Counted from the stretch's first letter, positions 1-37,521 are shown. The stretch: 64,000 nucleotides of DNA from a virus (IMGVR_UViG_3300045988_127492:87921-151920), one strand, 5' to 3'. The notes: generated from the letters alone by a model not told the origin. Made by a program: numbers and translations.

Positions 1-67
1 CTTTCTTTTTTGCAATGATGTAACTTGAAGATGAGCTATTAGTAACAAACCCTCTTCTTATTTTCAT
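1..67 (-). CDS. 5' end (22 codons) of a GFVTNSSSSS N-terminal-motif family protein; remainder lies left of the window
   Basis: Reverse complement reads MKIRRGFVTNSSSSSYIIAKKK, the same N-terminus as 24726-25499, 26366-26824 and 26821-27105. ATG overlaps the stop of 67-444 (TAATG). Confidence 0.5.
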   Translation of the reverse strand, partial: MKIRRGFVTNSSSSSYIIAKKK

Positions 68-444
68 TATCCATCTCTCCCTTCTCCTTCAGCAACTTCT
101 ATATCAGCAAATCCATTTTCTTCCGTAATGGCATCAATCGCTTCATTCATAGAAAAATTATAATTATAATTAACATCACCCCACTCATCTTCATAGGCCT
201 CATTGCTATCCATAATTACAATATATTCTCCATCAGGATGCTTTTCTAAAATGTCATCAACTCCATAAATTGTTGCTCCGCACCAGCTAGCCCCGAGACC
301 ACCACACCAATCTTTTTCATCATTTACGCCGGCAACATCTAATACATTAAGATTAAATTGATCAATTATCTTCTGAACTTTTTTCTTTGTCAGCGATTCT
401 TGCAAAACAGATAATGAAACTGCTAGAGCTTGAATTAGTGACAA
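67..444 (-). CDS. hypothetical acidic protein
   Basis: 125-aa ORF with a strongly acidic C-terminal half. Coupled to the downstream start. No family recognised. Confidence 0.6.
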   Translation of the reverse strand: MSLIQALAVSLSVLQESLTKKKVQKIIDQFNLNVLDVAGVNDEKDWCGGLGASWCGATIYGVDDILEKHPDGEYIVIMDSNEAYEDEWGDVNYNYNFSMNEAIDAITEENGFADIEVAEGEGRDG

Positions 445-474
445 ATCCTTTCCGTATTTTCATGGTCCTCCCTT

Positions 475-3266: not shown

Positions 3267-3267
3267 C

Positions 3268-5123: not shown

Positions 5124-5136
5124 ATTTTTATCTCCT

Positions 5137-17028: not shown

Positions 17029-17029
17029 A

Positions 17030-18244: not shown

Positions 18245-18278
18245 GCCTCCTTTCTAGTATTATAACATTGTTTAGGAA

Positions 18279-19277: not shown

Positions 19278-19287
19278 GCAAATCACC

Positions 19288-24710: not shown

Positions 24711-24725
24711 ACCCTCACTTTCTCG

Positions 24726-25499
24726 CTAACCCATATGGTTGCATGAATACTCTGCCATTTCACTTAACTTTTTAACTATAAAATCTGGTATATAACCACA
24801 TTCAGAGCAGATACAAATCTTTCCTAAAATATACAAACATGCTTGATCCCTTGGAATTTCTTTTCCCATGAACTGTTGTTTAGTTTCTTGGCATTCACCT
24901 TCATAACAGTATTCGTTCTGTGGACAGCTATCACAGTCATATTCCAGAGCATTTTCAATCCAAGGAAAATACCAAGCTAAGATATCAGATTCAATCCCGT
25001 TGCCATTGTCACCTGTACATTCCGTTATTCCTGTACTGAAGTCCAAAGGGATATATGGATCATTAGAAGAAAAATCCCTTATGTAAAAAGGTGCACATTT
25101 ATTCATGCCTGACTGCTGCATTTTTTGAATCCAAAACTGTTTATACTCTTCATAGGATTCACACTCTGTCCAAGAAAGTTCTTCTGGACTTGGTAAATCA
25201 TCATACCAAGTGGTTCCAAACATTGCTTCTAACTGTTTATTAATATTATCAGTGCATCTCCAGTCATACCCGTTTTGCTGATGAATGCTCTTTCCTCTAT
25301 TAGTATTAACAATTTCAAATACTGCCGGATAGTATTTCTCTACATAGTCATACATTTCTGAACAGGATTTATAATATTGTTTATAAAGTTTTCTCACTTC
25401 CTTATATACCGAATCAATAGTTACTGTGTTGTCGTTTGCCTTACCAATAATAAAACTTGAAGAACTACTATTGGTCACAAAACCATTACGAATCTTCAT
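24726..25499 (-). CDS. GFVTNSSSSSF N-terminal-motif family protein, Cys-rich C-terminus
   Basis: Starts MKIRNGFVTNSSSSSFIIGKAN when the internal ATG is used (track start is GTG 25508). GGAAGGGG RBS. Confidence 0.65.
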   Translation of the reverse strand: MKIRNGFVTNSSSSSFIIGKANDNTVTIDSVYKEVRKLYKQYYKSCSEMYDYVEKYYPAVFEIVNTNRGKSIHQQNGYDWRCTDNINKQLEAMFGTTWYDDLPSPEELSWTECESYEEYKQFWIQKMQQSGMNKCAPFYIRDFSSNDPYIPLDFSTGITECTGDNGNGIESDILAWYFPWIENALEYDCDSCPQNEYCYEGECQETKQQFMGKEIPRDQACLYILGKICICSECGYIPDFIVKKLSEMAEYSCNHMG

Positions 25500-26067
25500 T
25501 GGTACCACCCCTTCCTATATCATATGCTCTTTTACAGTAGACCCAATCATCACATAATGAACCTGCCATTTCTTTGTAGCACCCTTTGCACAAGTGTTGT
25601 CTGTCTTCTACTATTTTATTAAATTGGTCATAGTCTACATAGAATTCTTTCCGGTAAGTTCCATCTTCATCTTTAACTTTTCCTATATAACCACCATTTG
25701 CCATATCATAAGCAGTTTGGTCTATATATGGATGTAAGAAATCATAAATATCCTGTCCCAGATCATCTCCATCATACATGTACCCCTTCATGCAGAAGTT
25801 TATAGAAAAGCACCAGCCCGTGTAGTTATCAGTAGGACTCTTATAGAAATCCAAATAATATGCTGGATATAGCAGTCTATAATGATCTGCCCATTTAGAT
25901 TCCTTAAATTCTTTACATAACAGTTTATCCCAAAAATCTTCTTCGGAGCATTTTTTTGTCAAAAGGCTCAGATCATGAAGCAAGTCTTCCGGAATATCTT
26001 TTTTTAGTCCGAATGCTAAATTCCCCTCATAATAATTCCCCACTTTTCCACATCCTTTCGAACACAT
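25486..26067 (-). CDS. hypothetical protein
   Basis: 193-aa ORF overlapping its neighbours at both ends. Confidence 0.55.
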   Translation of the reverse strand: MCSKGCGKVGNYYEGNLAFGLKKDIPEDLLHDLSLLTKKCSEEDFWDKLLCKEFKESKWADHYRLLYPAYYLDFYKSPTDNYTGWCFSINFCMKGYMYDGDDLGQDIYDFLHPYIDQTAYDMANGGYIGKVKDEDGTYRKEFYVDYDQFNKIVEDRQHLCKGCYKEMAGSLCDDWVYCKRAYDIGRGGTNEDS

Positions 26068-26356
26068 AAATAGAATTCTCTGTTTCTACTGTTACCTCAG
26101 TTACTTTTACTGTAATGCCTACTACACGACTTGTGTATAATACTAATCCTTCGAGAGAGGTTCCATCAGAATCACATACGTAGCTAATTATCATAGGAGC
26201 GTTCCCTGTAATTTTATTTACATCAAGGTCTACTATCCGTCCTATTCTTAATGGATAACGCCCATCCGTTCTTTTGATTCCTCTAATGCCACAACTGCCA
26301 GAATGTAATATTTCTTTTATTTTATATTGTGTATTCTTTTTTCGCAGTGTTTCCAT
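26027..26356 (-). CDS. hypothetical protein
   Basis: 109-aa ORF with beta-rich composition. Confidence 0.55.
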   Translation of the reverse strand: METLRKKNTQYKIKEILHSGSCGIRGIKRTDGRYPLRIGRIVDLDVNKITGNAPMIISYVCDSDGTSLEGLVLYTSRVVGITVKVTEVTVETENSIYVFERMWKSGELL

Positions 26357-26365
26357 ATGGTCTCC

Positions 26366-26824
26366 TTAATGATGACTAATAGTAGCAAGACAACATTTCA
26401 TCTTTGGAACAACATAATGTTCAAGTTCTGAGTATTTAAGTCCATCATTGTCTGAATAACTGATTTCCACAAACACAGAGAGACCTTCCATTGCTTTTTC
26501 TAAATTAGACACTTTATTTGTAATTGCTTTATTAAGTTCTTTCTGAAATTCTTCTGTTTCTCGAACTTTAAATCTCTCGCTATAAGGGATATTTAAAGTA
26601 TTTTCTACTTCCCATCTGGTATAATAACGAATTTCTTCTGTATATCCCCCCAGAACATCTTCTTTATCCAATCTTGTAGCTTCCGTTACATCTCTCAGAA
26701 TCTCTTCAAAATACTCTTTAAGATTTTCTGCTTTCAGTTCTTCTTTGACGCTCTCTTCACTTTTAAAGCCAAGGATGAAGCTACTACTGCTACTGTTAGT
26801 TACAAATCCTTTTCTAATTTTCAT
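26366..26824 (-). CDS. GFVTNSSSSSF N-terminal-motif family protein
   Basis: MKIRKGFVTNSSSSSFILGFKSEE from ATG 26824. ATGA overlap with the upstream paralog's stop. Confidence 0.65.
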   Translation of the reverse strand: MKIRKGFVTNSSSSSFILGFKSEESVKEELKAENLKEYFEEILRDVTEATRLDKEDVLGGYTEEIRYYTRWEVENTLNIPYSERFKVRETEEFQKELNKAITNKVSNLEKAMEGLSVFVEISYSDNDGLKYSELEHYVVPKMKCCLATISHH

Positions 26825-27105
26825 GACCAATCCTCCCATTCAACGTCTTCACCATCTACACCAATTAACCGTAAGAACTTACTCATATTAAAATTGTCCA
26901 TAATAGTAAAACCACGAATTGATTGATCCGTTTCAGTAATACTCCATCTGTCCCACTCATCATAATAAGAACTATCCATTTCTAATTCTTTTGCAACTTT
27001 AATATGATTTTTAATCTTTTCAATCTGATCAGCTGTTAAATTACTTTTTGCAATAGTAAAACTGGATGAAGAACTATTAGTTACAAAACCGGTTCTTAAT
27101 TTCAT
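26821..27105 (-). CDS. GFVTNSSSSSF N-terminal-motif family protein (short)
   Basis: MKLRTGFVTNSSSSSFTIAKSN. 94 aa. Confidence 0.65.
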   Translation of the reverse strand: MKLRTGFVTNSSSSSFTIAKSNLTADQIEKIKNHIKVAKELEMDSSYYDEWDRWSITETDQSIRGFTIMDNFNMSKFLRLIGVDGEDVEWEDWS

Positions 27106-27524
27106 GTATCCTCCTCTATGATTTTATAATTTTTCTCTTGAGCATAGCTTTTTGTGTAGGTATTACAAGTGGCATAAACATACACATCTTTATTTCCTTT
27201 ATCAATTAAATTTCTTTGGCTTAAATCTCTCACTTTTGCTTCGGCAGCAAGATTATTTCTAGCCTTTATAGCTATGCAATTCTTAAAACGAGTTTCTATG
27301 GACACCAAGTAATATTCTTTAGGCTCTCCTGAAGCTTCATCATACATATCACTTAAATCATTGGTATCAAAATCAATAGTCTTACTGTCCGGATCACAAT
27401 GAACATATCCATTCTTTTTACCTTCAAAGTGGACGATCCCATCCTGAGGCAACCGCTGCAGAGCTTCAATCATCTCTGCAACAGTTGTTCCCTCACACCT
27501 CACTCTCTTACTAATATCCAGCAT
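27102..27524 (-). CDS. hypothetical protein
   Basis: 140-aa ORF with a 4-nt overlap with the downstream gene. Confidence 0.55.
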   Translation of the reverse strand: MLDISKRVRCEGTTVAEMIEALQRLPQDGIVHFEGKKNGYVHCDPDSKTIDFDTNDLSDMYDEASGEPKEYYLVSIETRFKNCIAIKARNNLAAEAKVRDLSQRNLIDKGNKDVYVYATCNTYTKSYAQEKNYKIIEEDT

Positions 27525-27535
27525 AGAACTCCTTT

Positions 27536-27802
27536 CTACTCCGTAACTTTAATGACGTAGATTTTATTTCCTCGTTTAGCATATTTAATAACTTCTTTTC
27601 CATCCTCCTCATTGAGTCTCTTGCAACAATTCATTACTGCAGAAGCTCTTCTTTTAGCCTCAGCTTCATCATCGTACTCAAAACACATATTAGCTCTGCC
27701 AGTTTTCATGAACTCAACAATGGCTCTTCCCTCTTCTGTTGTAACAAGACCTCTTCTGTTTGCTCCTAAATCTTCTACCTGTACGTCATAGCTCATTTTC
27801 AT
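27536..27802 (-). CDS. hypothetical protein
   Basis: 88-aa ORF. Confidence 0.55.
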   Translation of the reverse strand: MKMSYDVQVEDLGANRRGLVTTEEGRAIVEFMKTGRANMCFEYDDEAEAKRRASAVMNCCKRLNEEDGKEVIKYAKRGNKIYVIKVTE

Positions 27803-27806
27803 AATT

Positions 27807-28031
27807 TTAGTTCTCCTTTTCTCTTTTATTTAAAATTAATAATTTTAACGAATTTAGTGGTACCATAAAATACCTATTTACAGGATGCTCATGTTCCAAT
27901 ACTGGATAGTATACGACACCCCAAGAACCCTTTAGGGACTCTTCTCCAGTTAAAGTAAATATTCTATTTTCCCATGAATCTATTAAAGTATCTTTCATAA
28001 TCACTTGTAACCCTTTTTTATTCGGAACCAT
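27807..28031 (-). CDS. hypothetical protein
   Basis: Track ORF 27807-28094 trimmed to ATG 28031, immediately after the upstream stop. The RBS is weak, so the start is uncertain. Confidence 0.45.
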   Translation of the reverse strand: MVPNKKGLQVIMKDTLIDSWENRIFTLTGEESLKGSWGVVYYPVLEHEHPVNRYFMVPLNSLKLLILNKREKEN

Positions 28032-28032
28032 A

Positions 28033-28824
28033 TTAAAAACCTGTTTGCTTTCCAACAAAGTTAATTGGCTCACCAGTAACTTTGTTAATACCATGCCCTA
28101 CTACTTCGACAAAATAATCTTCCCAGTAGTCTCCTTTCTTGTAATAGGATGTATCTTCTTCATAGTATCCTTCTGTATGTTTAACAACAAATTTTACGGT
28201 TCCTTTAAAATCTTTGATCCAAGTAGTTGACCATTCTCTATTCAGATGGTAATCAAATTCCGGATTATATTTCAGTACTTCTTCTAACAAAAATACTGAC
28301 ACCAATCCAGCGTCTGCACAAAAATCGCCAATAACTTTCTTTGTATCTGTGTTAAAAGTAGTACAGCTCCAATCACCATAAAGTGTATCTCTTGTCATGT
28401 AATGAGTGATTCCAAGAGCTTCCATCTCACTACCGTAATTACATGCAGCCCAATCATCTTTTGTGAGTTCGTTAATTTCTCTCATAATGTAACAAGGATC
28501 TGTGATGATGATGTCTCCATCAAATTCCATTCCCGTATCAAGGTATCTCCTCAAATTATTTTTATTCCTGTATTTATAGAACAGTTCAATTACACCTGAG
28601 TGTTTTAACCACTTGTAAGTATTAGCGTCATAGTCATCTTCAAGACACTTCATGCACAGCATGTCTAAATAAAAATCTACATCTCTATGCATATTTTCCA
28701 AATCTTCAAAGACCTCATCCATTTTTTGATCTGTTAATGGTAACTTTTCTCTTAAAATTTTCTCAATTTCAGGCCGAACACTTTCACATTCTTTTGTTTT
28801 CTGTTCTAACCAAGCTTTGTTCAT
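28033..28824 (-). CDS. hypothetical protein
   Basis: Start moved to ATG 28824, preceded by AAAGGAGAG. 263 aa. Confidence 0.6.
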   Translation of the reverse strand: MNKAWLEQKTKECESVRPEIEKILREKLPLTDQKMDEVFEDLENMHRDVDFYLDMLCMKCLEDDYDANTYKWLKHSGVIELFYKYRNKNNLRRYLDTGMEFDGDIIITDPCYIMREINELTKDDWAACNYGSEMEALGITHYMTRDTLYGDWSCTTFNTDTKKVIGDFCADAGLVSVFLLEEVLKYNPEFDYHLNREWSTTWIKDFKGTVKFVVKHTEGYYEEDTSYYKKGDYWEDYFVEVVGHGINKVTGEPINFVGKQTGF

Positions 28825-28837
28825 TTTTCTCTCTCCT

Positions 28838-29233
28838 TTAATTTGGTTCGTCATAACTAAGTCCAGAAAGATTTACAAACTCATTTAATGCTAAAAACAT
28901 ATCTTTTTCCAATTTCTCCTTCCATATGTTACTCCACCAATCTACATCTGCTTCAATTCCAAGGTACCCAGCAGACTCCCAACCATCTTCCGTTTTAACA
29001 CAAGTGAAATACTCAATAATTGGTTTATATGTTGGTAATTCATTAAACATCCCACGGACAAAAATATTCACCTCAATGTCAACGTAACCTATTTCTAATA
29101 CCGCTTCACCTATGAGAGGTCCATTGTCAAGATCAATCTCTAAATGGTCTGCTTTTATGACTCTTATCCAATGTTGAATTCCATTGAGTCGAAATTCGTA
29201 ATCTGGGCGTTGTTTAGCTTCTTCAAATGTCAT
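28838..29233 (-). CDS. hypothetical protein
   Basis: Start ATG 29233 with GAGGTG 7 nt upstream. 131 aa. Confidence 0.55.
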   Translation of the reverse strand: MTFEEAKQRPDYEFRLNGIQHWIRVIKADHLEIDLDNGPLIGEAVLEIGYVDIEVNIFVRGMFNELPTYKPIIEYFTCVKTEDGWESAGYLGIEADVDWWSNIWKEKLEKDMFLALNEFVNLSGLSYDEPN

Positions 29234-29235
29234 AG

Positions 29236-29682
29236 CTAGCACCTCGAATATAATTCAATTTCCATATGAATGTATTTTCCCATGTTACTATTTAAAATTT
29301 CTAACAGATCATGCCCTCCACATTTAAATTCTTCTTCAGTCCAAAGATATCCTGTGTAATCACTATACCGATGATAATATTCAGATTCAGTGATACCTTC
29401 CATTGATACAATCTTTGTTTCGTCAATATGATCCATATCAATAGGAGTATCTCCTGTAAGCATTTGAATACTTGCATATCTGTCAAGCCACCCGCATCGA
29501 CTTTCCATTTCTTTTGAAAAAGCAAATCCATTATTAGATACAACAATTTCTTCACCAGAAAATCTTTTTACTTTCTGAATATTTTGTATTCCAATAATGC
29601 TATCAGCAACATCTTCTGTGTTTACCCACCCTACTTTTCCATTGAGAATAATAGTGTCCTCTAATTTATACCCTTCTTTCAT
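29236..29682 (-). CDS. hypothetical protein
   Basis: 148-aa ORF. The nested ORF 29301-29555 in another frame was ignored. Confidence 0.55.
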   Translation of the reverse strand: MKEGYKLEDTIILNGKVGWVNTEDVADSIIGIQNIQKVKRFSGEEIVVSNNGFAFSKEMESRCGWLDRYASIQMLTGDTPIDMDHIDETKIVSMEGITESEYYHRYSDYTGYLWTEEEFKCGGHDLLEILNSNMGKYIHMEIELYSRC

Positions 29683-29914
29683 GTCTATAATTCTCCTTTC
29701 TTTTCTCTATAGTATTCCTCAAATTGTGTTCTCCATATATAATAGAGTAATACTTCAAAGCTTCTAATAATGGAACCGGATTTCCATCTAAGAAATATCC
29801 ATAACCATTACCGCATTTGTGTTGAGGATTTATAAAACTTATTTGACAGATACTGCAGTACGGAGACTTACAACAGAATTCTCTTAACTTGAAATATATT
29901 TCATATCTATCCAT
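29666..29914 (-). CDS. Cys-rich small protein
   Basis: 82 aa with CCKSPYCSIC...HKCGNG. Confidence 0.5.
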   Translation of the reverse strand: MDRYEIYFKLREFCCKSPYCSICQISFINPQHKCGNGYGYFLDGNPVPLLEALKYYSIIYGEHNLRNTIEKRKENYRHERRV

Positions 29915-30196
29915 GTCTTCTCCTATAAATTAATGTGCTTAAAGGAAGTTCTAACATCTGGCTATTCCAACAATATCTTGCTTCTTTTATATGATAAAGC
30001 TTATTTTCATGTCCTTCAAATGCGCTATGTATCGTAACTTTTTGACCACATAGTTTTTTCATTTATTCATTGAAGCCACAGATGACAATTGGCATTCCAT
30101 CCTCTTCCTGCGGCCGATATTCTTCTATTAAACGATCAAACGGTTTTACTTTATAGTGACCACCAATTTTAAGAACTTTAAGTTTACTTAGATTCA
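29907..30196 (-). pseudogene. family-A small-protein paralog split by an in-frame TAA
   Basis: MNLSKLKVLKIGGHYKVKPFDRLIEEYRPQEEDGMPIVICGFNE-TAA-MKKLCGQKVTIHS...LPLSTLIYRRRHG. Aligns end to end with 31860-32144 (..NCGFVREMKKYCGQKLRIRAI..). Confidence 0.55.
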
Positions 30197-30516
30197 TTGT
30201 TTATCCTTTCATATAGTTTTCTAAACTTTACAAAATCTTCTTGTTTACCTCCATTGTCAGGATGAGCTTTAACCATTGCATAATGAACAGCTTCTTCTAT
30301 TTCTAAAGATGGTGTAATAATTTGGGGCTTTTTAAGTTTTATTGCAAGCCTTTTATTTTCTTCACATACACATATTATATTGAAGCGTAAAGAGTCATTC
30401 TGTCTTTTTAATTTATCTACTTCCATTTTCAAATTTATGTTTCCACTTATACAAACAAACAAAATTATTAATGTTGCTACCAATACAACACTCAACCCTA
30501 CTATTTGTACTAACAT
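30184..30516 (-). CDS. membrane-anchored J-domain-like protein
   Basis: From ATG 30516 (GAGGAG RBS): N-terminal TM helix, a coiled coil, then AVHYAMVKAHPDNGGKQEDFVKFRKLYERI, which carries the HPD tripeptide. Confidence 0.6.
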   Translation of the reverse strand: MLVQIVGLSVVLVATLIILFVCISGNINLKMEVDKLKRQNDSLRFNIICVCEENKRLAIKLKKPQIITPSLEIEEAVHYAMVKAHPDNGGKQEDFVKFRKLYERINNESK

Positions 30517-31574
30517 AAATCTTTCTCCTCTTTTGTACATAAGACGATTTCTCTTCTGATCGGACATCCACCTAAGCAATCACACTGACGGCTACAGCCT
30601 CTACAAGAATTCCTGAAATGACTTCTGAAATCATCGAATACATCTGAATCCCATGCTTCCTGAATAGTGTGTTCATTAAGATCAACTGCCCACTTAAGTT
30701 CCTGATTATCAAAGCTACATGGCAGCATTTTCATATCTGACGTAATGTAACCAGAAAATCTTGCTCCTTCACACGGTTCCAGAGTAGAATTTAAAATCTC
30801 TTCTGTAAAATTCAACAGTCCAGGCACAGAACATGAATCAAATCCAATCTGAAATTTATAATCATGTTTATCAATCAAAGAGAAAAATTCTTTGACTCTT
30901 TCATCATCAGGAGATAAGACATTTGCCTGAGTTCCTAAGCCTACTGGTTTATGTAGCAAGAAAATCACTGCATTAATACCATCTGGAAAATCTTCACGCT
31001 GCAAATGTTCAATAGCTTCGTCAATAGAATTTCGACCAAGAACATAATGAATATTAGTAGTAACACCAGCAGCTACTAACATGTTAATTGCTTTTTCAGT
31101 ATACTCACTTCTGTACCAAGAAATAGCTACAGCGCCACAATATCCTTTGCAAAGGGCTACGATTTCATCAGTAAATCCTAAACCTGAGCTTGTAAAATTT
31201 GGTACAATCCCTTGTGAACGACAGTATTTAAGAATTTCTTCAAAGTTCTCATGCTGATCCACATCGCCTCTACCTCCAAGAGCAAACTGGAATGTTTTTC
31301 CTTTACATTCATCTACTATTCTCTTGAAATTCTCAAGGGACATATTAGGCTCCTGTGTGTGTAATCCATTCTGATAACACTGAACTCCTGACTGAATACA
31401 CAAACCAGATGCCCCATGAACGCAATGTCCCATAACACCAATATCTAACAAAGCAGGAAAATTTCTCATAAATGGTTCCTTTCCTGTTGTCAAATCATCA
31501 GACCGGATATAGAACCCTGTCTTCGGATTAAATGTTTCTACAAAGTTATTTTTCTTGTCGTAATATCTATACAT
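30510..31574 (-). CDS. radical-SAM-fold enzyme with C-terminal SPASM domain and non-canonical N-terminal Cys spacing
   Basis: C-terminal PCSF...EAWDSDVFDDFRSHFRNSCRGCSRQCDCLGGCP (SPASM pattern). GGRGD in place of the GGE SAM motif. N-terminal Cys cluster is GHCVHGASGLCIQSGVQCY, not CxxxCxxC. Confidence 0.7.
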   Translation of the reverse strand: MYRYYDKKNNFVETFNPKTGFYIRSDDLTTGKEPFMRNFPALLDIGVMGHCVHGASGLCIQSGVQCYQNGLHTQEPNMSLENFKRIVDECKGKTFQFALGGRGDVDQHENFEEILKYCRSQGIVPNFTSSGLGFTDEIVALCKGYCGAVAISWYRSEYTEKAINMLVAAGVTTNIHYVLGRNSIDEAIEHLQREDFPDGINAVIFLLHKPVGLGTQANVLSPDDERVKEFFSLIDKHDYKFQIGFDSCSVPGLLNFTEEILNSTLEPCEGARFSGYITSDMKMLPCSFDNQELKWAVDLNEHTIQEAWDSDVFDDFRSHFRNSCRGCSRQCDCLGGCPIRREIVLCTKEEKDLC

Positions 31575-31872
31575 TTTTTCTTCTCTCCTTAATCATAATT
31601 TCTAATTTCCCTGTGAATGGAATAAGCATTACTTCATCCCAAGAGAAATAAAGCAATTCTTTATCCTCATCCTCGTATCCTGTAATGGTTTCCAAATCAT
31701 ATATGTTATTAACTGGATCATATATTGCTTTAATTTTGTATATTTTCCCACAAAAGCATCGCATATCTGGGATAAAACTTGATGGTGTATTTATAGTTCC
31801 ATCAGTGACACCATACTCCTTTGCCATCTGATCCCAAGACTTAACCCTTACTTTCTGTCCTACTTCATACAT
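31567..31872 (-). CDS. family-A small protein (KVGxxVxV...W..M..E(F/Y)G...CG...L-I-x-x-R-R tail)
   Basis: MYEVGQKVRVKSWDQMAKEYG...FCGKIYKIKAI...LEIMIKERRKNV. Confidence 0.65.
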   Translation of the reverse strand: MYEVGQKVRVKSWDQMAKEYGVTDGTINTPSSFIPDMRCFCGKIYKIKAIYDPVNNIYDLETITGYEDEDKELLYFSWDEVMLIPFTGKLEIMIKERRKNV

Positions 31873-32144
31873 TCTTGCCTCCTTGTGATTAACATTGATA
31901 AGTCTCCTTTTTCAAACATCTCACTTGTAAAAGTCCATGTATCTGCAGCATTCAAATAATAATAGATGTCATCAAATTTCTGTATAGCACGTATCCGCAA
32001 CTTTTGGCCACAATATTTTTTCATTTCTCTTACAAAACCGCAATTGTTACATCGAATAACACCATAATAATTAACACCAAATTCTTTAACCATATCATCC
32101 CATTGACGAATCTGAACTATGTCTCCTACTTTGTATTGCCTCAT
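31860..32144 (-). CDS. family-A small protein
   Basis: MRQYKVGDIVQIRQWDDMVKEFG...YCGQKLRIRAI...LSMLITRRQECMK. The AGGAGG codons encoding RR form the downstream gene's SD. Confidence 0.65.
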   Translation of the reverse strand: MRQYKVGDIVQIRQWDDMVKEFGVNYYGVIRCNNCGFVREMKKYCGQKLRIRAIQKFDDIYYYLNAADTWTFTSEMFEKGDLSMLITRRQECMK

Positions 32145-32403
32145 GCAAACCTCCTATTGGCATAATCATGTCTGTAGACCATGTGAACATTCTTCCATCT
32201 TCTTCAATATCGAAAAGATCTCTATCCCAGGGCAAAACATATTTGATTGTTACTATATTTCCACAATACTTACGCATATCTCTAACAAACGAAGCTTGAC
32301 ATGATATATATTCATTGTACGATCCAGCATGTCTTAATCCAAATTCTTTTTTCATACTTTCCCATGAACGTACTCTATACTTTTGTCCTACTTTTACTTT
32401 CAT
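32095..32403 (-). CDS. family-A small protein
   Basis: MKVKVGQKYRVRSWESMKKEFG...YCGNIVTIKYV...GGLHEAIQSRRH. Confidence 0.65.
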   Translation of the reverse strand: MKVKVGQKYRVRSWESMKKEFGLRHAGSYNEYISCQASFVRDMRKYCGNIVTIKYVLPWDRDLFDIEEDGRMFTWSTDMIMPIGGLHEAIQSRRHSSDSSMG

Positions 32404-32680
32404 TTCTTACCTCAATTAAATTCATCAACCCAGGCTTAATAAGCATATTTTCAGTAAATAAATATTGCTCTCCAGTTTCTATATTCTGCCCTTTATATAC
32501 ATGGTCTTTTTTATACCAATTATCCCTTGTAATTATGCGAATATTTTTCTCGCATAAAGGCTCCATTTCAAGTAAAAATACTATTGGTCCAAAATCTAAA
32601 CATCCAAGGAATTTGCCATTAGAAGCTTTTTTAAGTTCTTCCCATCTTTTTACACGGTATACTTCTCCTATTTTTATCAT
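32375..32680 (-). CDS. family-A small protein
   Basis: MIKIGEVYRVKRWEELKKAS...LCEKNIRIITR...PGLMNLIEVRNESK. Confidence 0.6.
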   Translation of the reverse strand: MIKIGEVYRVKRWEELKKASNGKFLGCLDFGPIVFLLEMEPLCEKNIRIITRDNWYKKDHVYKGQNIETGEQYLFTENMLIKPGLMNLIEVRNESKSRTKV

Positions 32681-32688
32681 AATTTCAC

Positions 32689-33765
32689 CTACTCAATAAG
32701 CAGTACATCAACTGCATTTCTAAATTTCTTTAACAACTCCGGATTAGCACAAACAATTTTCTTTCTGGTTACTCTACTTTTTCCATGCTTGTTAATATAT
32801 CTGGTTTCTAAATTATGCCAGTTGATAGAAGAATTCATTTCTTTCATCTTCTGATAAACTTTTCTATATGTAACCATGTTTCCATTGCTCTTATCTTTAT
32901 ATTTTTCTGCTAAAGGAATAATAATAGAATCAGTTGCATCCTGATTACAAACTGGTTTATACTTTTCGTAGAGATCTCCTAAAGCTGCACTAAAGATAGA
33001 TCTAAGAGTATCATTTGCATAGACAACATCATAAGTGCTAAACTTACTTACCGGATTATGTTTTGCTTTGTAATCTTTTACTTCCTGATCCCAACAGATA
33101 CCATAGTTTTTATTCATATATTTATATACTGCACCCATAACTGAGCCACGGTCTGAAAATCTATCACATGTAGTAAGTGCATCAATCATCTGGTACATAT
33201 CATTTTTCCATTTCTTACAGGGGTCTTCTACCTTTTTCACTGGTAATGCGACAGCAGGAGCTTTTGATTCTAACAATACAGAAACTACTTTACCCATATC
33301 CGCATAAACTCTATCTACTTTTTCCTGTAGAATTTCAATCTGTTTACTAAAATCAGGCATCTGTAACTGAATGATATTAGAATTATCAACTTTCTTTTCT
33401 AAGAAAGCTGCTGCCAGTACATCTTTTGCTTTGAGCTGGTATGATACAAGCTTTTCAGTAATTCCTGGGGAATCTTTTTTCATTGCTGGAGTGATTGAAA
33501 TTTTAGTTAGCCATAAAGGTAAGTAATCCAGTTGTAAACATAAAACATTTTGATTCCCACCATTTGTAAGGAGGGTAAAATTTTGTACCCCCTTTGAAAT
33601 TACTGAATCTGTTTGCATTTTTCTTCTTTCATATTTGATCCGGTTGTCGTCGAGTCCAATAGCCTCACACACCCAACGAGCACCGACCCAGACATTCCCT
33701 TCTGGATCCTGTGCCGCTCTAAGAATATCTCCCTGAAAATTTATTTCTTTAGCTACTAAATCCAT
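32689..33765 (-). CDS. phage antirepressor-like protein
   Basis: N-terminal INFQGDILRAAQDPEGNVWVGARWVCEAIGL resembles P22-type antirepressor N-terminal domains. 358 aa. Confidence 0.55.
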   Translation of the reverse strand: MDLVAKEINFQGDILRAAQDPEGNVWVGARWVCEAIGLDDNRIKYERRKMQTDSVISKGVQNFTLLTNGGNQNVLCLQLDYLPLWLTKISITPAMKKDSPGITEKLVSYQLKAKDVLAAAFLEKKVDNSNIIQLQMPDFSKQIEILQEKVDRVYADMGKVVSVLLESKAPAVALPVKKVEDPCKKWKNDMYQMIDALTTCDRFSDRGSVMGAVYKYMNKNYGICWDQEVKDYKAKHNPVSKFSTYDVVYANDTLRSIFSAALGDLYEKYKPVCNQDATDSIIIPLAEKYKDKSNGNMVTYRKVYQKMKEMNSSINWHNLETRYINKHGKSRVTRKKIVCANPELLKKFRNAVDVLLIE

Positions 33766-33767
33766 AA

Positions 33768-34310
33768 TTATTCTCCTTTTAACTTACTGATTGCTAATTT
33801 AATTGCTTCTTGTTCTTTTGGAGTTTTACAAACATTGTCATCGAGATAGCTTTGAAGCAACGCGACTGCTTTCTCGTCAGTCATTTCATTTAATTTATTT
33901 CTTACAATTTCCAGAAGCTTTTCTTCATTCCCTTTCCATTCATATGCTTTACATAAATTTCCGCTACAATGTACATTTGTGATTGATAAGGCACATGAAG
34001 AACAATTTTTATCGCCACACCCAGCAACATATTTAATCATGTCCTCAATAAACTCTCTGGCAGTCATTTCTTTCTCTTCTGACCGACTCTCATCAATAAT
34101 TTCGGAAGCTGTATATAAATTATGATGATAACCGGTGGCAACTGTTCCATCACTACGAAAACGAAGTACATCTGGAAATTTCTGTCCTTCAAAAACTCTT
34201 AATTCTCCTCCTGTAACCCATTTGTATCCCTGTTTCCTTGCAATTTCAAAGAACTTTTCACATTCTTCTCTTGTATTTACTCTTACATAAATATTTCTTA
34301 AATCAATCAT
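33768..34310 (-). CDS. family-C (MIDLR) domain protein with Cys-rich C-terminal extension
   Basis: MIDLRNIYVRVNTREECEKFFEIARKQGYKWVTGG...FPDVLRF matches 34727-35002 and 34995-35276. Confidence 0.6.
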   Translation of the reverse strand: MIDLRNIYVRVNTREECEKFFEIARKQGYKWVTGGELRVFEGQKFPDVLRFRSDGTVATGYHHNLYTASEIIDESRSEEKEMTAREFIEDMIKYVAGCGDKNCSSCALSITNVHCSGNLCKAYEWKGNEEKLLEIVRNKLNEMTDEKAVALLQSYLDDNVCKTPKEQEAIKLAISKLKGE

Positions 34311-34333
34311 ACTGTTTTATCTCCTCTTTATCA

Positions 34334-34708
34334 TTATTCAAGTACTGGTTTTAATGGACATGCTTCAGGAATTGTAGAGTGTTCTTTCTTTTTTAATATT
34401 TCGATATATTCATGTAATAAATTACAATAATATCCATTGATAAGTTTTGAAAATGGACATTCATTGCATGTATTCGGAGCGTTTATGATTATCATTTTCT
34501 TGTTTGTTTTCTCACCTTTTGATAATCGCACTAACAATCCCTGTTCTTCTAAGTCCTCATAATCGGCAAGTTTTTCAATAGCTTTTCCAACAGGACACGC
34601 CCAGCAACCTGAAAATGTATAATCATCACAGAAACATTTACAAGCTGTATCTCCGACTTCTGCCAAAAGAGTGTTTTCATCTTCTATTCTCTTTGTTAAT
34701 CTCTCCAT
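34334..34708 (-). CDS. Cys-rich hypothetical protein
   Basis: 124 aa with several Cys pairs (CKCFCDD, CWACPVG, CNECPF). Confidence 0.55.
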   Translation of the reverse strand: MERLTKRIEDENTLLAEVGDTACKCFCDDYTFSGCWACPVGKAIEKLADYEDLEEQGLLVRLSKGEKTNKKMIIINAPNTCNECPFSKLINGYYCNLLHEYIEILKKKEHSTIPEACPLKPVLE

Positions 34709-34726
34709 CTACTTCACCTCAAAAAT

Positions 34727-35002
34727 TTACATCTCCGAAACATCTTCCCTTTTTAAAATCAAACCTCTTAATCCAAGTATATCTTTACACTGATAATCTC
34801 GTGGATAATATTGATAAGCCGTAGCATTATAATGTACACTATATTCTTCATCAAAACGCAATCTAGTCGGGAACCGACAATAAACATGATCTAAAGAAAC
34901 ACTATTCGCCCAATAGAATCCTTGTCTCTTCGCTACTACAGCTATTGCCTTGTACTCAACTTCATTATTCACTAAAACAGTACATTTTCTTAAATCAATC
35001 AT
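34727..35002 (-). CDS. family-C small protein with L-I-L-x-R tail
   Basis: MIDLRKCTVLVNNEVEYKAIAVVAKRQGFYWAN...FPTRLRF...LRGLILKREDVSEM. Confidence 0.6.
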   Translation of the reverse strand: MIDLRKCTVLVNNEVEYKAIAVVAKRQGFYWANSVSLDHVYCRFPTRLRFDEEYSVHYNATAYQYYPRDYQCKDILGLRGLILKREDVSEM

Positions 35003-35276
35003 TAGTTCTTCCCTTTTGTCTAATTAAAATAAGTTTTCGTACACCTTTTATTAGAACCATACAGTTTGGATAGTCACGCGGCTGGCAACCTATCCATGCT
35101 CCATAATATGTACAATGATTTCTCTTAAATTCTAATCTAGTTGGGAATTCACACATAATATTATTTAAAGAACTTCCACTAGCCCATTCAAAGCCTTGCT
35201 TTATAGCCATTTTAGTTATAGCTCTGTACTCTTTTTCATTGTTAATCTTTACAGTACAATCTCTAAGGTCAATCAT
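34995..35276 (-). CDS. family-C small protein with L-I-L-x-R tail
   Basis: MIDLRDCTVKINNEKEYRAITKMAIKQGFEWAS...FPTRLEF...VRKLILIRQKGRTND (from the internal ATG). Confidence 0.6.
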   Translation of the reverse strand: MIDLRDCTVKINNEKEYRAITKMAIKQGFEWASGSSLNNIMCEFPTRLEFKRNHCTYYGAWIGCQPRDYPNCMVLIKGVRKLILIRQKGRTND

Positions 35277-35413
35277 TTCCATCCCCATCCTTTCAAAGTA
35301 AGCATCTTTTTCAGGTTCTTACATTTAATGAAACTTGGTGTATATTCTTTTGTCTCTTCACAATATCCAAACCATTTACCTGATACATCCTTTTGAATAA
35401 TATATACTTTCAT
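35273..35413 (-). CDS. 46-aa small protein (below the ORF-track cutoff)
   Basis: MKVYIIQKDVSGKWFGYCEETKEYTPSFIKCKNLKKMLTLKGWGWK. ATGA overlaps at both ends fill an otherwise empty 120-nt gap. Confidence 0.5.
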   Translation of the reverse strand: MKVYIIQKDVSGKWFGYCEETKEYTPSFIKCKNLKKMLTLKGWGWK

Positions 35414-35703
35414 TGCTGATTCTCCTTCCTAAGTTTTATAATATTGTTTAATCCTGATGGAGAACGTAGCATAGCGTTGTTAAAGTACCATTCGATTCCA
35501 TGTCCATCTATTTTTATGAAGTACTCATCTGCTGTACCATCCGTTATAGCAACAATCTTACCTAATTTTCCACGATATTTTGCCATAGAAGTATTAAAAA
35601 GCAATGTTTCATATCCACAAATTGGTTTATGTTCATATACATAAAGATTATTGATAATCAAATCCTCTCTAACAATTACCTTGTCTCCAATCTTATATCT
35701 CAT
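35410..35703 (-). CDS. family-A small protein
   Basis: MRYKIGDKVIVRED...MAKYRGKLGKIVAI...PSGLNNIIKLRKENQQ. Confidence 0.65.
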   Translation of the reverse strand: MRYKIGDKVIVREDLIINNLYVYEHKPICGYETLLFNTSMAKYRGKLGKIVAITDGTADEYFIKIDGHGIEWYFNNAMLRSPSGLNNIIKLRKENQQ

Positions 35704-35923
35704 AATTTTCCTTTCTGGCTTCTATCAGTCTACTTAGACTTCCTACCGGAATAAGTGATGATCTATACCAGCATCCATCTGGAACCCCAATTAGATTATA
35801 ACCATTAAGACTCTTTCTACCAATCCTATAAACTTTTCCGAGATATTTTACCCCTATCTCACGAACTGCTAAGTTACGTTTTATACGAACCCAGTCTCCT
35901 ACTTTATATTCTCTCTTCTGCAT
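35693..35923 (-). CDS. family-A-like small protein (short form)
   Basis: MQKREYKVGDWVRIKRN...VGSLSRLIEARKENYEI. Confidence 0.6.
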   Translation of the reverse strand: MQKREYKVGDWVRIKRNLAVREIGVKYLGKVYRIGRKSLNGYNLIGVPDGCWYRSSLIPVGSLSRLIEARKENYEI

Positions 35924-36183
35924 ATCAAACCTCCTAAGCTATTAGCTGGCAATAACATGGCATCGTTAAATACCCACATGTTTTGTTCTACTTCTAAAGA
36001 TAATTCATAAAACTCTCCTTCATTATCAATTGAAGCTTTTGTTATTTTATATTCTCTCCCGCAAAATTTTTCCATTTGATGAGCAAACCATAATTTTCTA
36101 CTTGATGAATTTGAGTAGGGATATTCATTTCCTCCAATTAAATCTGTTCGAACTCTAACTCTATCCCCAACTTTATATCTCAT
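35899..36183 (-). CDS. family-A small protein
   Basis: MRYKVGDRVRVRTD...MEKFCGREYKITKA...NSLGGLICRRENIK. Confidence 0.65.
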   Translation of the reverse strand: MRYKVGDRVRVRTDLIGGNEYPYSNSSSRKLWFAHQMEKFCGREYKITKASIDNEGEFYELSLEVEQNMWVFNDAMLLPANSLGGLICRRENIK

Positions 36184-36428
36184 GTTCGTTTTCTCCTCCT
36201 ATCAATCAGTACAGTTAATCCTTTGTAAGGGATAAATTCGTCTGCTGGAAATACATAACCTCTAAGTTCTTCAAACATATAAGCTTCAAACGTATAAGCT
36301 TCTATCCCAGAAGTTAAACTTTTAATTAATCTTATAGTATATATATTTCCTAACAACCGTTCTCTATGGATACCCCATATCTTAAGAGGTGCATTAGTTT
36401 TAAGGATTACTTTGTCTCCTGGCCTCAT
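36180..36428 (-). CDS. family-A-like small protein
   Basis: MRPGDKVILKTN...YKGLTVLIDRRRKRT. Confidence 0.6.
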   Translation of the reverse strand: MRPGDKVILKTNAPLKIWGIHRERLLGNIYTIRLIKSLTSGIEAYTFEAYMFEELRGYVFPADEFIPYKGLTVLIDRRRKRT

Positions 36429-36642
36429 ATTGCCTCCTTTTGTGAATTGCAGAAGATAATGTGTCTTTTATAGGGATCAACATATCTATATCAAATATAT
36501 ATTTTGATTCTTCCACTAAACAGGAACCATAGTCATATATACTTTGTATGGTCAAAATTCTTCTTTGTACGTCTTTCACAGGAATCCCAAATACAGTCCC
36601 AGATAATCTAGGATCAACTATCACTTTATCTCCAACCTTCAT
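36400..36642 (-). CDS. family-A-like small protein
   Basis: MKVGDKVIVDPRL...KDTLSSAIHKRRQYE from the internal ATG 36642. Confidence 0.6.
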   Translation of the reverse strand: MKVGDKVIVDPRLSGTVFGIPVKDVQRRILTIQSIYDYGSCLVEESKYIFDIDMLIPIKDTLSSAIHKRRQYEARRQSNP

Positions 36643-36643
36643 G

Positions 36644-36799
36644 TTATTTCTCCAGTATAAAATCAAGTACTTCTACAATACTCATACCTGATATATCTAA
36701 TAGTTTCATTTCCTTTGAAGCATACTGCACAATACAAATCCCGTCCTTGATTGTACAGCTTGTTATGCCTCTCTTTTTTAATAACTTGTTCAGCTCCAT
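36644..36799 (-). CDS. 51-aa small protein (below the ORF-track cutoff)
   Basis: MELNKLLKKRGITSCTIKDGICIVQYASKEMKLLDISGMSIVEVLDFILEK, preceded by AAGGAG. Its stop lies 1 nt before the 36642 start. Confidence 0.5.
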   Translation of the reverse strand: MELNKLLKKRGITSCTIKDGICIVQYASKEMKLLDISGMSIVEVLDFILEK

Positions 36800-36810
36800 G
36801 ATGACTCCTT

Positions 36811-36850
36811 AAAATTCTCTTGGGGAGTCGAACCCCAAGAGAACTGTTTT
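36811..36850. terminator. bidirectional Rho-independent terminator (11-bp stem TTCTCTTGGGG/CCCCAAGAGAA)
   Basis: Perfect 11-bp stem with a 7-nt loop and T-tracts on both strands. Lies between 36865-37389 and the small-ORF array. Confidence 0.8.
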
Positions 36851-36864
36851 TATTTTATTGTTTA

Positions 36865-37389: not shown

Positions 37390-37521
37390 ATTCTCCTTTT
37401 AATCCTTGTTTTCTTATTTTTTCTTATTTCTCTTTTTAAATCCTATATTCAGTTGTAATTTATATGAAAACCTCTTAGTGGGCTAGAGGTCAATCATATA
37501 CTTTGGCATATCCATTCCTCC

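What the first reader, a model, noticed from the sequence alone, without database searches (positions are those of the whole stretch)
29907..32680. Radical-SAM/SPASM enzyme with non-canonical Cys spacing, a membrane-anchored J-domain protein and flanking multi-copy small Cys-Gly proteins: a possible protein-modification module
The 354-aa ORF 30510-31574 has a convincing SPASM-type C-terminus (PCSF...EAWDSDVFDDFRSHFRNSCRGCSRQCDCLGGCP) and a GGRGD motif where radical-SAM enzymes have GGE. Its N-terminal cluster is C-x8-C-x6-C (GHCVHGASGLCIQSGVQC) rather than CxxxCxxC.

Its surroundings:
- Directly upstream are four family-A paralogs (31567-32680).
- Directly downstream are a TM-anchored HPD/J-like protein (30184-30516) and a fifth family-A copy (29907-30196).
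- Five more family-A copies sit at 35410-36642.
- Most family-A members keep a central (Y/F/L)-C-G motif: FCGKIY, YCGQKL, YCGNIV, LCGQKV, FCGREY.

SPASM maturases typically act on Cys-containing peptide or protein substrates encoded next to them, often in several copies. Substrates of 80-100 aa in a phage, coupled to a J-protein, would be a new arrangement. This is an inference from gene context only.
Basis: inference. Interest (0 to 1): 0.65.

Follow-up and report, generated by a model that had tools for sequence, protein, structure and literature searches.

The report
Radical-SAM enzyme with serine-tagged partners
The enzyme is a real radical-SAM/SPASM protein with an odd iron-sulfur motif, but its conserved partners are a different, undescribed set of proteins that all begin MK-I-R-x-D/G-F-V-T-N-S-S-S-S-S-F, and this enzyme-plus-partner pair recurs in phages, bacteria and one archaeal genome.

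Summary
ORF 30510-31574(-) is a radical-SAM/SPASM enzyme. It passes the Pfam SPASM threshold, its AlphaFold model has pLDDT 94, and its best fold matches are SuiB, PqqE and anSME. Its cluster loop is C-x7-C-x6-C, not x8/x6. More distant homologues carry the canonical CxxxCxxC and pass PF04055.

The proposed link to the small "family A" proteins and the J-like protein is not supported. Both accompany the enzyme only in the window's own ~95%-identical phage clade. They are absent from 11 of 11 loci whose enzyme is 64-69% identical. Family A also occurs in 10 copies without the enzyme on another phage scaffold.

The conserved partner is "family C": proteins of about 84 to over 700 aa that share only the N-terminus MK[IV]RxDFVTNSSSSS[FY].
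- It follows the enzyme in 37 of 37 enzyme-seeded viral loci.
- The enzyme lies upstream in 45 of 49 family-C-seeded loci.
- The two genes are adjacent in 74 of 80 bacterial/archaeal loci; 26 of these sit in SMEK-NACHT (NLR-like) operons.
- Both occur in the same ~175 T4-like Klebsiella/RB43-type phages.

The window holds five family C genes: 24726-27105 (three), 67-463 and 1-67.

Best reading: a one-maturase, many-substrates protein-modification module. The chemistry is unknown. I found no curated model or paper for it.

The parts
30510..31574 (-). Radical-SAM/SPASM enzyme, 354 aa. Cluster loop C51-x7-C59-x6-C66, GGRGD motif, and 8 conserved C-terminal Cys that could hold two auxiliary clusters.
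   Evidence: pLDDT 93.9; SuiB E=3e-11, TM 0.65; also PqqE and anSMEcpe; PHROG 7293, unknown function.
26821..27105 (-). Family C gene, 94 aa, N-terminus MKLRTGFVTNSSSSSF. Candidate substrate or partner of the enzyme.
   Evidence: (PHROG 7397, unknown function); co-occurrence.
26366..26824 (-). Family C gene, 152 aa, N-terminus MKIRKGFVTNSSSSSF, C-terminus ...CCLATISHH.
   Evidence: In the AlphaFold model residues 1-13 have pLDDT below 50 and the core is a beta-sheet plus helices. No PDB fold match.
24726..25499 (-). Family C gene, 257 aa, N-terminus MKIRNGFVTNSSSSSF, Cys-rich, ending ...SCNHMG. The same subfamily is found in other phages and in bacteria.
67..463 (-). Family C gene interrupted by a frameshift at an A-run. 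The first 33 aa (MKIRKGFVTNSSSSSFIICFARIAD...) are in one frame and the remaining 125 aa, ending ...GEGRDG, are in another.
   Evidence: It matches the 'GRNG'-ending subfamily in alignment A3.
1..67 (-). Start of a fifth family C gene (MKIRRGFVTNSSSSSYIIAKK...), cut off by the window edge.
30184..30516 (-). 110-aa protein with a membrane anchor, a coiled coil and a minimal HPD (J-like) C-terminus. Lineage-specific; not part of the conserved module.
   Evidence: Found only in the 95-97% clade.
31567..32680 (-). Four family-A paralogues (SH3-like small proteins, PHROG 7488). Lineage-specific neighbours; not the conserved partner.
29907..30197 (-). Family-A copy split by an in-frame TAA at 30063-30065.
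   Evidence: Intact in related phages.
35410..36642 (-). Five further family-A paralogues.

Best explanation
The ORF is the enzyme half of a conserved two-gene module. The enzyme is a radical-SAM/SPASM protein. Its partners are one to ten 'family C' proteins that are otherwise hypervariable but all begin with M-K-[IV]-[RK]-x-[DG]-F-V-[TS]-N-S-S-S-[ST]-S-[FY].

I propose that the enzyme is a protein maturase. On this reading it threads the flexible N-terminal tail of each family C protein into its barrel and uses a 5'-deoxyadenosyl radical to modify a residue in or next to the serine run. One enzyme would then serve many paralogous substrates, as the anaerobic sulfatase-maturing enzyme does for sulfatases.

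In this phage clade, about 3.4 kb of lineage-specific genes (the J-like protein, a family-A copy and others) has come to lie between the enzyme and its family C genes. The enzyme's cluster loop has also been lengthened from CxxxCxxC to Cx7Cx6C.

Shown: the fold class, the motif, and the co-occurrence. Inferred: that family C is the substrate, that the N-terminal motif is the site, and any chemistry.
For: Enzyme class:
- SPASM passes the Pfam cut-off.
- The AlphaFold model has pLDDT 93.9 and pTM 0.92.
- The best PDB fold matches all act on peptides or proteins: SuiB, PqqE, anSMEcpe, CteB and SkfB, with TM 0.58-0.65.
- Canonical homologues pass PF04055 (P0154 69 bits, L118 33 bits).

Partnership:
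- All 37 enzyme-seeded viral loci with at least 4.5 kb of downstream flank have family C downstream on the same strand.
- 45 of 49 non-close loci seeded with the peptide FVTNSSSS have the enzyme upstream within 8 kb.
- 74 of 80 genome loci, from many bacterial phyla and one Methanoregula genome, have a family C gene directly adjacent. It starts either 0-30 nt after the enzyme's stop or is the gene immediately upstream.
- Neighbour clustering finds no other recurrent partner except a SMEK-NACHT NTPase and a ~125-aa protein, in 26 and 20-21 loci respectively.
- In deposited phage genomes, 175 records hold the KP15-type enzyme and 175 hold the KP15_102-type family C protein, with the same genus breakdown.

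Motif under protein-level selection:
- There are 155 distinct 48-nt versions.
- The Ser codons mix AGY and TCN freely, while N10 and S13-S15 stay almost invariant.
- The rest of the protein averages 17% identity.

Tail accessibility: residues 1-13 have pLDDT below 50 in the model, and the core starts at residue 14.
Against: - There is no biochemical evidence of any kind.
- The family C model is only moderate (pLDDT 70, shallow alignment), so the flexible tail could be an artefact.
- No covariation between enzyme and motif residues could be separated from phylogeny.
- The window enzyme lacks the canonical CxxxCxxC and gets no PF04055 hit, so activity in this clade is assumed, not shown.
- In this window and in KP15 the two genes are not adjacent: 3.4 kb apart here and 19-24 kb apart in KP15.
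- 6 of 80 genome loci and 4 of 49 family-C-seeded loci lack the partner within the stretch fetched.
Confidence: 0.55

Rival explanations
1. One reading: the enzyme cross-links or otherwise modifies the conserved Cys of the family-A small proteins, with the J-like protein assisting.
For: In the window the enzyme is physically embedded among family-A genes, with overlapping stop and start codons. The same arrangement is kept in about 30 related phage contigs.
Against: - Those contigs are one clade, with the enzyme 95-97% identical.
- Family A and the J-like protein are absent from all 11 loci with a 64-69% identical enzyme.
- Among family-C-seeded loci outside the clade, only L113 (which belongs to the window's clade) has family A.
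- Neighbour clustering of the 80 genome loci found no other recurrent family.
- Ten family-A copies occur on a scaffold without the enzyme.
- The Cys is present in only 6 of 10 copies.
Confidence: 0.04
2. Family C proteins are not substrates but adaptors or subunits. The invariant N-terminal strand would dock onto the enzyme, for example on its conserved 40-residue N-terminal three-stranded sheet. The variable C-terminal domains (zinc ribbons, LRR-like repeats, others) would then bring different targets to one catalytic subunit.
For: - The co-occurrence data are the same as for the best explanation.
- The C-terminal parts are extremely diverse, ranging from about 84 to over 700 aa, and some carry repeat or Cys-rich domains.
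- The enzyme has a conserved N-terminal beta-sheet (strands at residues 2-6, 11-15 and 22-24) with near-invariant F15, G20 and R24.
Against: - I know of no precedent among SPASM enzymes for interchangeable targeting subunits.
- Members as short as 84-94 aa leave little room for a target-binding domain.
- An invariant run of five serines is more typical of a reaction or recognition site than of a docking strand.
Confidence: 0.2
3. The N-terminal motif is a sorting or assembly tag, like the capsid-targeting sequence shared by the hypervariable internal proteins of T4-like phages. On this reading the enzyme acts on something else (a small molecule or nucleic acid) and is merely co-inherited.
For: The pattern of an invariant short N-terminus on otherwise unrelated, multi-copy phage proteins resembles T4 internal proteins (established knowledge of T4, not tested here). 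In KP15 and in this window the genes are not adjacent.
Against: The pair is adjacent, often with overlapping or near-abutting coding regions, in 74 of 80 genome loci from bacteria and one archaeon. Many of these sit in NLR-like operons, where a capsid tag makes no sense. Nothing else is conserved around them.
Confidence: 0.1
4. In the window's clade the enzyme is a catalytically dead 'pseudo-SAM' protein that has lost the canonical cluster motif and kept only a binding or structural role.
For: There is no PF04055 hit. The last two Cys are 6 residues apart, where almost all known radical-SAM enzymes have 2. The Cys-loop region has a lower pLDDT of about 77.
Against: - Three Cys are kept across the whole clade (94 of the 120 closest homologues are scored 7-6, and most of the rest are regex truncations).
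- GGRGD is kept in 117 of 120.
- All eight auxiliary-cluster Cys are kept.
- Relatives form a graded series of spacings (3-2, 4-2, 5-2, 5-3, 7-2, 7-6, 9-2), all still carrying three Cys.
Confidence: 0.1

Closest known systems
Anaerobic sulfatase-maturing enzymes (anSME/AtsB) and their sulfatase substrates
   Same: Both are rSAM/SPASM enzymes with two auxiliary clusters acting on full-length proteins rather than short peptides. One maturase serves many paralogous substrates that share a short motif, and serine can be the target. anSMEcpe is among the top fold matches (E=1e-9, TM 0.58).
   Different: The motif is MKxRxDFVTNSSSSSF at the extreme N-terminus, not (C/S)xPxR inside a sulfatase domain. 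The substrates share no catalytic domain. TIGR03942 did not appear among the matches listed for the window protein, and a canonical homologue scored 26 bits against a cut-off of 349. The chemistry is unknown.
RiPP maturases SuiB (streptide), PqqE, CteB, SkfB and MftC
   Same: These are the best structural neighbours, with weak sequence matches to the same NCBIfam models. They share the 7-8 Cys SPASM arrangement.
   Different: The enzyme has no PqqD-like recognition domain, only about 40 N-terminal residues of beta-sheet. The partners are proteins of about 84 to over 700 aa with the conserved part at the N-terminus. No protease or exporter is conserved nearby.
FxSxx-COOH peptide plus rSAM/SPASM (FxsB-type) cassettes in NTPase-based conflict systems (Kaur et al. 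2020, PMC7159879)
   Same: An rSAM/SPASM enzyme is paired with a short conserved motif next to STAND-type NTPases. Here 26 of 80 genome loci carry a SMEK-NACHT NTPase directly upstream.
   Different: That motif is C-terminal and comes with a processing peptidase and a vWA-MoxR system. Here the motif is N-terminal and the operon is SMEK-NACHT, a ~125-aa protein, family C and the enzyme. No paper combining 'SMEK' and 'radical SAM' was found.
Radical-SAM enzymes with non-canonical cluster motifs (ThiC Cx2Cx4C, HmdB Cx5Cx2C, some QueE Cx14Cx2C; from my own knowledge)
   Same: Three Cys are kept but with altered spacing.
   Different: Here a single family shows a graded series (3-2, 4-2, 5-2, 5-3, 7-2, 7-6, 9-2). 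The window's form also widens the normally fixed Cx2C pair to Cx6C.
J-domain co-chaperones (PF00226), including the phage RB43 protein Rki
   Same: HPD tripeptide flanked by helices. 13/33 identity to E. coli DnaJ helix II-HPD-helix III.
   Different: No Pfam hit. There is no room for helices I and IV. It has a membrane anchor and is restricted to one phage clade.

Membership tests
Radical SAM superfamily (PF04055) | CxxxCxxC motif binding the SAM-cleaving [4Fe-4S] cluster | tested here: not met
   The window protein has C51-x7-C59-x6-C66. Homologues in the same family have the canonical motif.
Radical SAM superfamily (PF04055) | Profile match above the Pfam gathering score | tested here: not met
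   No PF04055 hit at E<0.1 for the window protein. It is met by homologues: P0154 69 bits, P0185 61 bits, L118 33 bits, against a cut-off of 29.5.
Radical SAM superfamily (PF04055) | Partial TIM-barrel core fold shared with solved radical-SAM enzymes | tested here: met
   Model pLDDT 93.9. There are 85 PDB matches at E<=0.001, and all 50 listed are radical-SAM enzymes.
Radical SAM superfamily (PF04055) | Reductive cleavage of SAM | not testable with these tools
   Needs anaerobic biochemistry.
SPASM subfamily (PF13186 / TIGR04085) | C-terminal Cys-rich domain with Cx2Cx5Cx3C and upstream Cys for two auxiliary clusters | tested here: met
   PF13186 scores 24.5 bits against 21.5. C324-x2-C327-x5-C333-x3-C337 is present, with C248, C268, C286 and C346 invariant or nearly so. 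TIGR04085 scores 19.5 bits, below its cut-off of 27.
Anaerobic sulfatase maturase (TIGR03942) | Profile match above the curated cut-off, plus a sulfatase substrate with (C/S)xPxR | tested here: not met
   Not among the matches listed for the window protein. A canonical homologue scores 26 bits against 349. No sulfatase is encoded nearby.
Any named rSAM/SPASM peptide-maturase equivalog in NCBIfam (PqqE, MftC, SkfB, WgkB, StsB, PapB, GeoRSP and others) | Score above the family's curated cut-off | tested here: not met
   The best score for the window protein is 31.8 bits (TIGR04317, cut-off 380). The best for canonical homologues is 67.8 bits (TIGR03962, cut-off 265).
RiPP biosynthetic cluster | Short precursor peptide with leader and core, a recognition element, and a protease or exporter | tested here: not met
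   The partners are proteins of about 84 to over 700 aa. Only about 40 residues precede the barrel. No recurrent protease or transporter is found.
J-domain (PF00226) | HPD motif between helices II and III within a four-helix, ~70-aa domain | tested here: inconclusive
   HPD is present, with 39% identity over 33 residues to DnaJ. There is no Pfam hit and no PDB sequence hit, and only about 40 residues are available.
Proposed new module: rSAM/SPASM enzyme plus family C | An enzyme of this clade (PHROG 7293-like) and at least one protein starting MK[IVF][RK]x[DG]F[VI][TS]NSSS[ST]S[FY], in the same locus and on the same strand | tested here: met
   In the window the enzyme is at 30510-31574 and family C genes are at 26821-27105, 26366-26824 and 24726-25499, all on the minus strand. 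The pattern is general.

The most novel reading that the evidence does not exclude
The enzyme installs a so far unknown radical-derived modification on an invariant 16-residue N-terminal 'serine tag'. That tag is shared by a large, hypervariable family of effector-like proteins used on both sides of phage-host conflict. Bacteria and archaea would couple the pair to NLR-like SMEK-NACHT sensors. Phages of gut Firmicutes would carry expanded families of up to 8 copies per locus, and T4-like enterobacterial phages also carry the pair. The window's clade would additionally show that a radical-SAM cluster can be held by a Cx7Cx6C loop.
Probability: 0.3. Interest if true: 0.85.

Novelty: new variant of a known kind. 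Interest (0 to 1): 0.7.

Why it matters
If the enzyme does modify the serine-rich N-terminus, this would be a new class of radical-SAM protein modification with an unusually wide distribution. A scan of 185,579 species' genomes found 454 loci; 80 were fetched, and of those 74 had family C adjacent and 26 sat in NLR-like operons. Thousands of metagenomic homologues exist, many of them in phages.

The pattern is rare outside the sulfatase system: one maturase and many unrelated proteins that share only a tag.

About a third of the fetched genome loci link it to NLR-like defence operons, while phages carry expanded copies. It may therefore bear on immunity or counter-immunity.

The family also offers a natural series of cluster-loop spacings, which can be used to ask how much the CxxxCxxC rule can bend.

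The pair is present in cultured T4-like phages (KP15, RB43 and relatives), so the idea can be tested directly in the laboratory.

Tried and rejected
- Near-identity DNA search of 27000-37000 against deposited phages: no match.
- PDB sequence search with the enzyme: only BtrN at E about 0.4.
- Family C against Pfam, NCBIfam and PADLOC: nothing. In PHROGs it matches only PHROG 7397 (unknown function). PDB fold search: nothing.
- tblastn of a window family C protein against deposited phages: no match, probably because of divergence and low-complexity masking.
- Viral scans with two canonical enzyme representatives (P0154, P0209): nothing found.
- Covariation between enzyme columns and motif positions 6, 9 and 14: only phylogenetic signal. 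R24 is invariant whether position 6 is D or G.
- Promoter and terminator scans of 24000-37500: at or below chance.
- Literature searches: motif strings, phage plus SPASM, SMEK plus radical SAM, and Slopekvirus plus radical SAM. [quoted passage not shown]
- Considered and rejected: that the shared C-terminal tail L-x3-I-x2-R(R) of families A and B is an enzyme recognition motif. The invariant Arg codons are the in-frame Shine-Dalgarno (AGGAG) of the overlapping downstream gene.
- Considered and rejected: that the motif is conserved at the DNA level. Ser codon usage rules this out.


Full report
**Setting.** The window is low-GC DNA (about 34% G+C) with genes packed on the minus strand up to about 50 kb. 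The annotated genes are accessory phage functions:
- NAD synthetase, nicotinamide phosphoribosyltransferase and PRPP synthetase;
- NAD-dependent ligase, integrases, anti-repressors and PhoH.

No deposited phage is close at the DNA level. IMG/VR holds about 30 contigs of 85-250 kb with the same genes at about 95% identity. One protein of the region is also found in Blautia wexlerae assemblies. This is most likely a large gut Lachnospiraceae phage.

**The observation.** The 354-aa ORF at 30510-31574(-) is real.
- It passes the Pfam SPASM cut-off (24.5 against 21.5 bits) but gives no Radical_SAM hit.
- NCBIfam returns only weak matches to many rSAM/SPASM maturases, all far below their cut-offs.
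- PHROGs places it in PHROG 7293, of unknown function.

The neighbouring features are as follows.
- The 'fifth copy' carries an in-frame TAA that is absent from related phages.
- The central Cys occurs in only 6 of 10 copies.
- The J-like call rests on an HPD motif and 13/33 identity to DnaJ, with no profile support.

**What the enzyme is.** The family is very large.
- 4045 hits came from the 5.8-billion-protein set.
- 1556 cluster representatives were found at 50% identity.
- Relatives at 27% identity occur in T4-like Klebsiella, Enterobacter and Cronobacter phages.

An alignment of 37 diverse members shows that distant members have the textbook CxxxCxxC-Y and GG-G-(E/N)P. The window's subclade has extra residues between the first and third Cys.

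Across loci and representatives the spacings form a series: 3-2, 4-2, 5-2, 5-3, 7-2, 7-6 and 9-2. Canonical members pass PF04055. Eight C-terminal Cys are invariant or nearly so.

An AlphaFold model built on 39 sequences is confident (pLDDT 93.9, pTM 0.92). Its best PDB neighbours are SuiB, PqqE, anSMEcpe, CteB, SkfB, TigE and ChlB. All of these act on peptides or proteins.

So the protein is a member of the radical-SAM/SPASM group by homology and fold, although it fails two sequence-level tests. Only about 40 residues, forming three short strands, precede the barrel. There is therefore no PqqD-like recognition domain.

**Testing the proposed partners.** I built an HMM of family A and searched the six-frame ORFs of 42 viral loci that encode the enzyme.
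- Family A, the J-like protein and the other immediate neighbours were found only in the loci whose enzyme is 95-97% identical.
- In the 11 loci with a 64-69% identical enzyme, none of them is present.
- A 35-kb faecal phage scaffold (MT835544.1) has ten family-A ORFs and neither the enzyme nor family C.

**The real partner.** In every divergent locus the enzyme is followed, on the same strand, by one to seven genes whose products begin MK[IV]RxDFVTNSSSSS[FY]. The window has five such genes:
- 26821-27105, 26366-26824 and 24726-25499, all intact;
- 67-463, frameshifted at an A-run;
- 1-67, cut by the window edge.

Outside the first 16 residues these 'family C' proteins average 17% identity. 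They range from about 84 to over 700 aa, and some carry zinc-ribbon-like or repeat domains. They match only PHROG 7397 (unknown function). Nothing matches in Pfam, NCBIfam or PADLOC.

The motif is maintained at the protein level. Among 155 distinct 48-nt versions, the serine codons switch freely between AGY and TCN. N10 and S13-S15 are nevertheless almost invariant, even at positions where my search pattern allowed alternatives.

**Strength of the association.**
- Forward: 37 of 37 enzyme-seeded viral loci with enough downstream flank have family C.
- Reverse: scanning IMG/VR for the peptide FVTNSSSS gave 49 loci outside the window's clade, and 45 have the enzyme upstream on the same strand.
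- Beyond phages: a scan of one genome per species with the canonical subset found 454 loci. These come from Firmicutes, Proteobacteria, Desulfobacterota, Bacteroidota, Verrucomicrobiota, Spirochaetia, CPR bacteria and a Methanoregula genome. In 74 of the 80 loci fetched, a family C gene abuts the enzyme.
- Other neighbours: clustering all neighbours shows nothing else recurrent except a SMEK_N-NACHT NTPase of 885-949 aa and a ~125-aa protein. These form the operon NTPase, small protein, family C (motif MKxKxDFVSNSSSTSF), enzyme, in 26 of the 80 loci.
- T4-like phages: KP15 has no family C within 6 kb of the enzyme, but it has two elsewhere. KP15_97 and KP15_102 lie 19-24 kb away.
- Deposited phages: the enzyme and KP15_102 homologues each occur in 175 records with matching genus counts, including RB43.

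**Mechanism.** What is shown:
- an enzyme of the rSAM/SPASM fold;
- an invariant N-terminal serine-rich motif on otherwise unrelated proteins;
- a very tight genomic coupling of the two, with no conserved protease or exporter.

What I infer is that family C proteins are the enzyme's substrates and that the N-terminal tail is the site. The AlphaFold model of the 152-aa member gives residues 1-13 low confidence, and the folded core begins at residue 14. That would suit threading into the barrel, but the model is only moderate (pLDDT 70).

The closest functional analogy is the anaerobic sulfatase maturase, where one enzyme acts on many proteins at a short motif and serine is a possible target. 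The chemistry cannot be decided here. Candidates are oxidation of Ser to an aldehyde, epimerisation, or a cross-link such as an aromatic-to-C-beta link at [FY]-[VI]-[TS].

A near-invariant extra Cys (C146, in YCGAVA[VI]S) lies outside all cluster motifs. It could be a hydrogen-atom donor, which is speculation.

The main rival is that family C proteins are interchangeable adaptors rather than substrates. A sorting-tag model and a dead-enzyme model are less likely, for the reasons given under the rival explanations.

**Novelty.** No curated model covers either family, and no paper in the searchable library mentions the motif or the pairing. [quoted passage not shown] Kaur et al. 2020 describe a different rSAM/SPASM-peptide cassette (C-terminal FxSxx) in NTPase conflict systems, which is a conceptual precedent.

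I therefore class this as a new variant of a known kind: an rSAM/SPASM maturase with cognate substrates. The new elements are the substrate family, the N-terminal tag on full-length hypervariable proteins, the link to NLR-like operons and phage expansions, and an unusual flexibility of the cluster motif.

**Verdict.** The interpretation has the right kind of enzyme but the wrong partners. What the region reveals, once followed outward, is more interesting than the original proposal. Confidence that the enzyme and family C form a functional pair is high, at about 0.85. Confidence that family C is the substrate, modified at its N-terminus, is about 0.55.

Noticed in passing
window 665-6329 (-): A cluster of NAD+ synthesis and salvage genes: NAD synthetase (665-1810), nicotinamide phosphoribosyltransferase (3268-4734) and ribose-phosphate pyrophosphokinase (5526-6329). 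It resembles phage NAD+-reconstitution pathways. Family C genes at 1-463 lie right next to it.
   Followed up: partly
window 29907-36642, the 3' ends of family A and B genes: All family A and B proteins end in L-x3-I-x2-R(R). The invariant Arg codons (AGG/AGA) are the Shine-Dalgarno sequence of the next gene, whose start overlaps the stop. This is dual coding and suggests translational coupling along the block.
   Followed up: yes
window 30063-30065: An in-frame TAA splits a family-A gene (30063-30197 plus 29907-30062). The gene is intact (about 96 aa) in related phage contigs. It is either a recent nonsense mutation or an assembly error.
   Followed up: partly
window 67-463 (-): A family C gene is broken by a frameshift at a run of A's (GACAAAGAAAAAAGTT). 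This could be a sequencing error, a pseudogene or slippage.
   Followed up: partly
window 33768-35288 (-): A second small paralogue family ('family B', N-terminus MIDLR-x-C/I-x-V-x-VN) comprises 34727-35002, 34995-35288 and the N-terminus of the 180-aa ORF 33768-34310. Its function is unknown.
   Followed up: no
L202 (KP15 record 66515-70885): In Klebsiella phage KP15 the two family C genes (KP15_97 and KP15_102) flank KP15_100, a 738-aa protein annotated with a MIDAS (vWA) site. By eye, ORFs carrying a MIDAS-like DxSGS motif also lie just upstream of the enzyme in viral loci L037 and L042; no domain search was run on them.
   Followed up: no
L122-L200 (for example L142 4580-9035): A four-gene operon: SMEK_N-NACHT NTPase, a ~125-aa protein, family C, then the rSAM/SPASM enzyme. 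It occurs in Proteobacteria, Desulfobacterota, Verrucomicrobiota, Bacteroidota and a Methanoregula genome. It looks like an undescribed NLR-type conflict system.
   Followed up: partly
proteins P0051, P0127, P0128, P0271; Slopekvirus phages Rpl1 and Kpn35c1: Some enzyme homologues are fused to, or split by, homing-endonuclease modules. P0051 carries PF07460, and a published comparison reports a GIY-YIG insertion splitting the gene in Kpn35c1. P0271 reads as two family C units in one ORF.
   Followed up: no
window 30510-31574, residue C146: A near-invariant Cys in the motif YCGAVA(V/I)S lies outside the three cluster motifs across the whole family. It is a candidate catalytic residue.
   Followed up: no
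window 36815-36843: A perfect 11-bp stem (6 G-C pairs) with a 7-nt loop sits in the gap between ORFs 36644-36799 and 36865-37389. It is the strongest hairpin in the 13.5 kb scanned.
   Followed up: no
window 16123-19286 (-): Two integrase-family genes (16123-17043 and 18279-19286) flank a 404-aa protein of unknown function (PHROG 5732), in the middle of the accessory region of a large phage.
   Followed up: no
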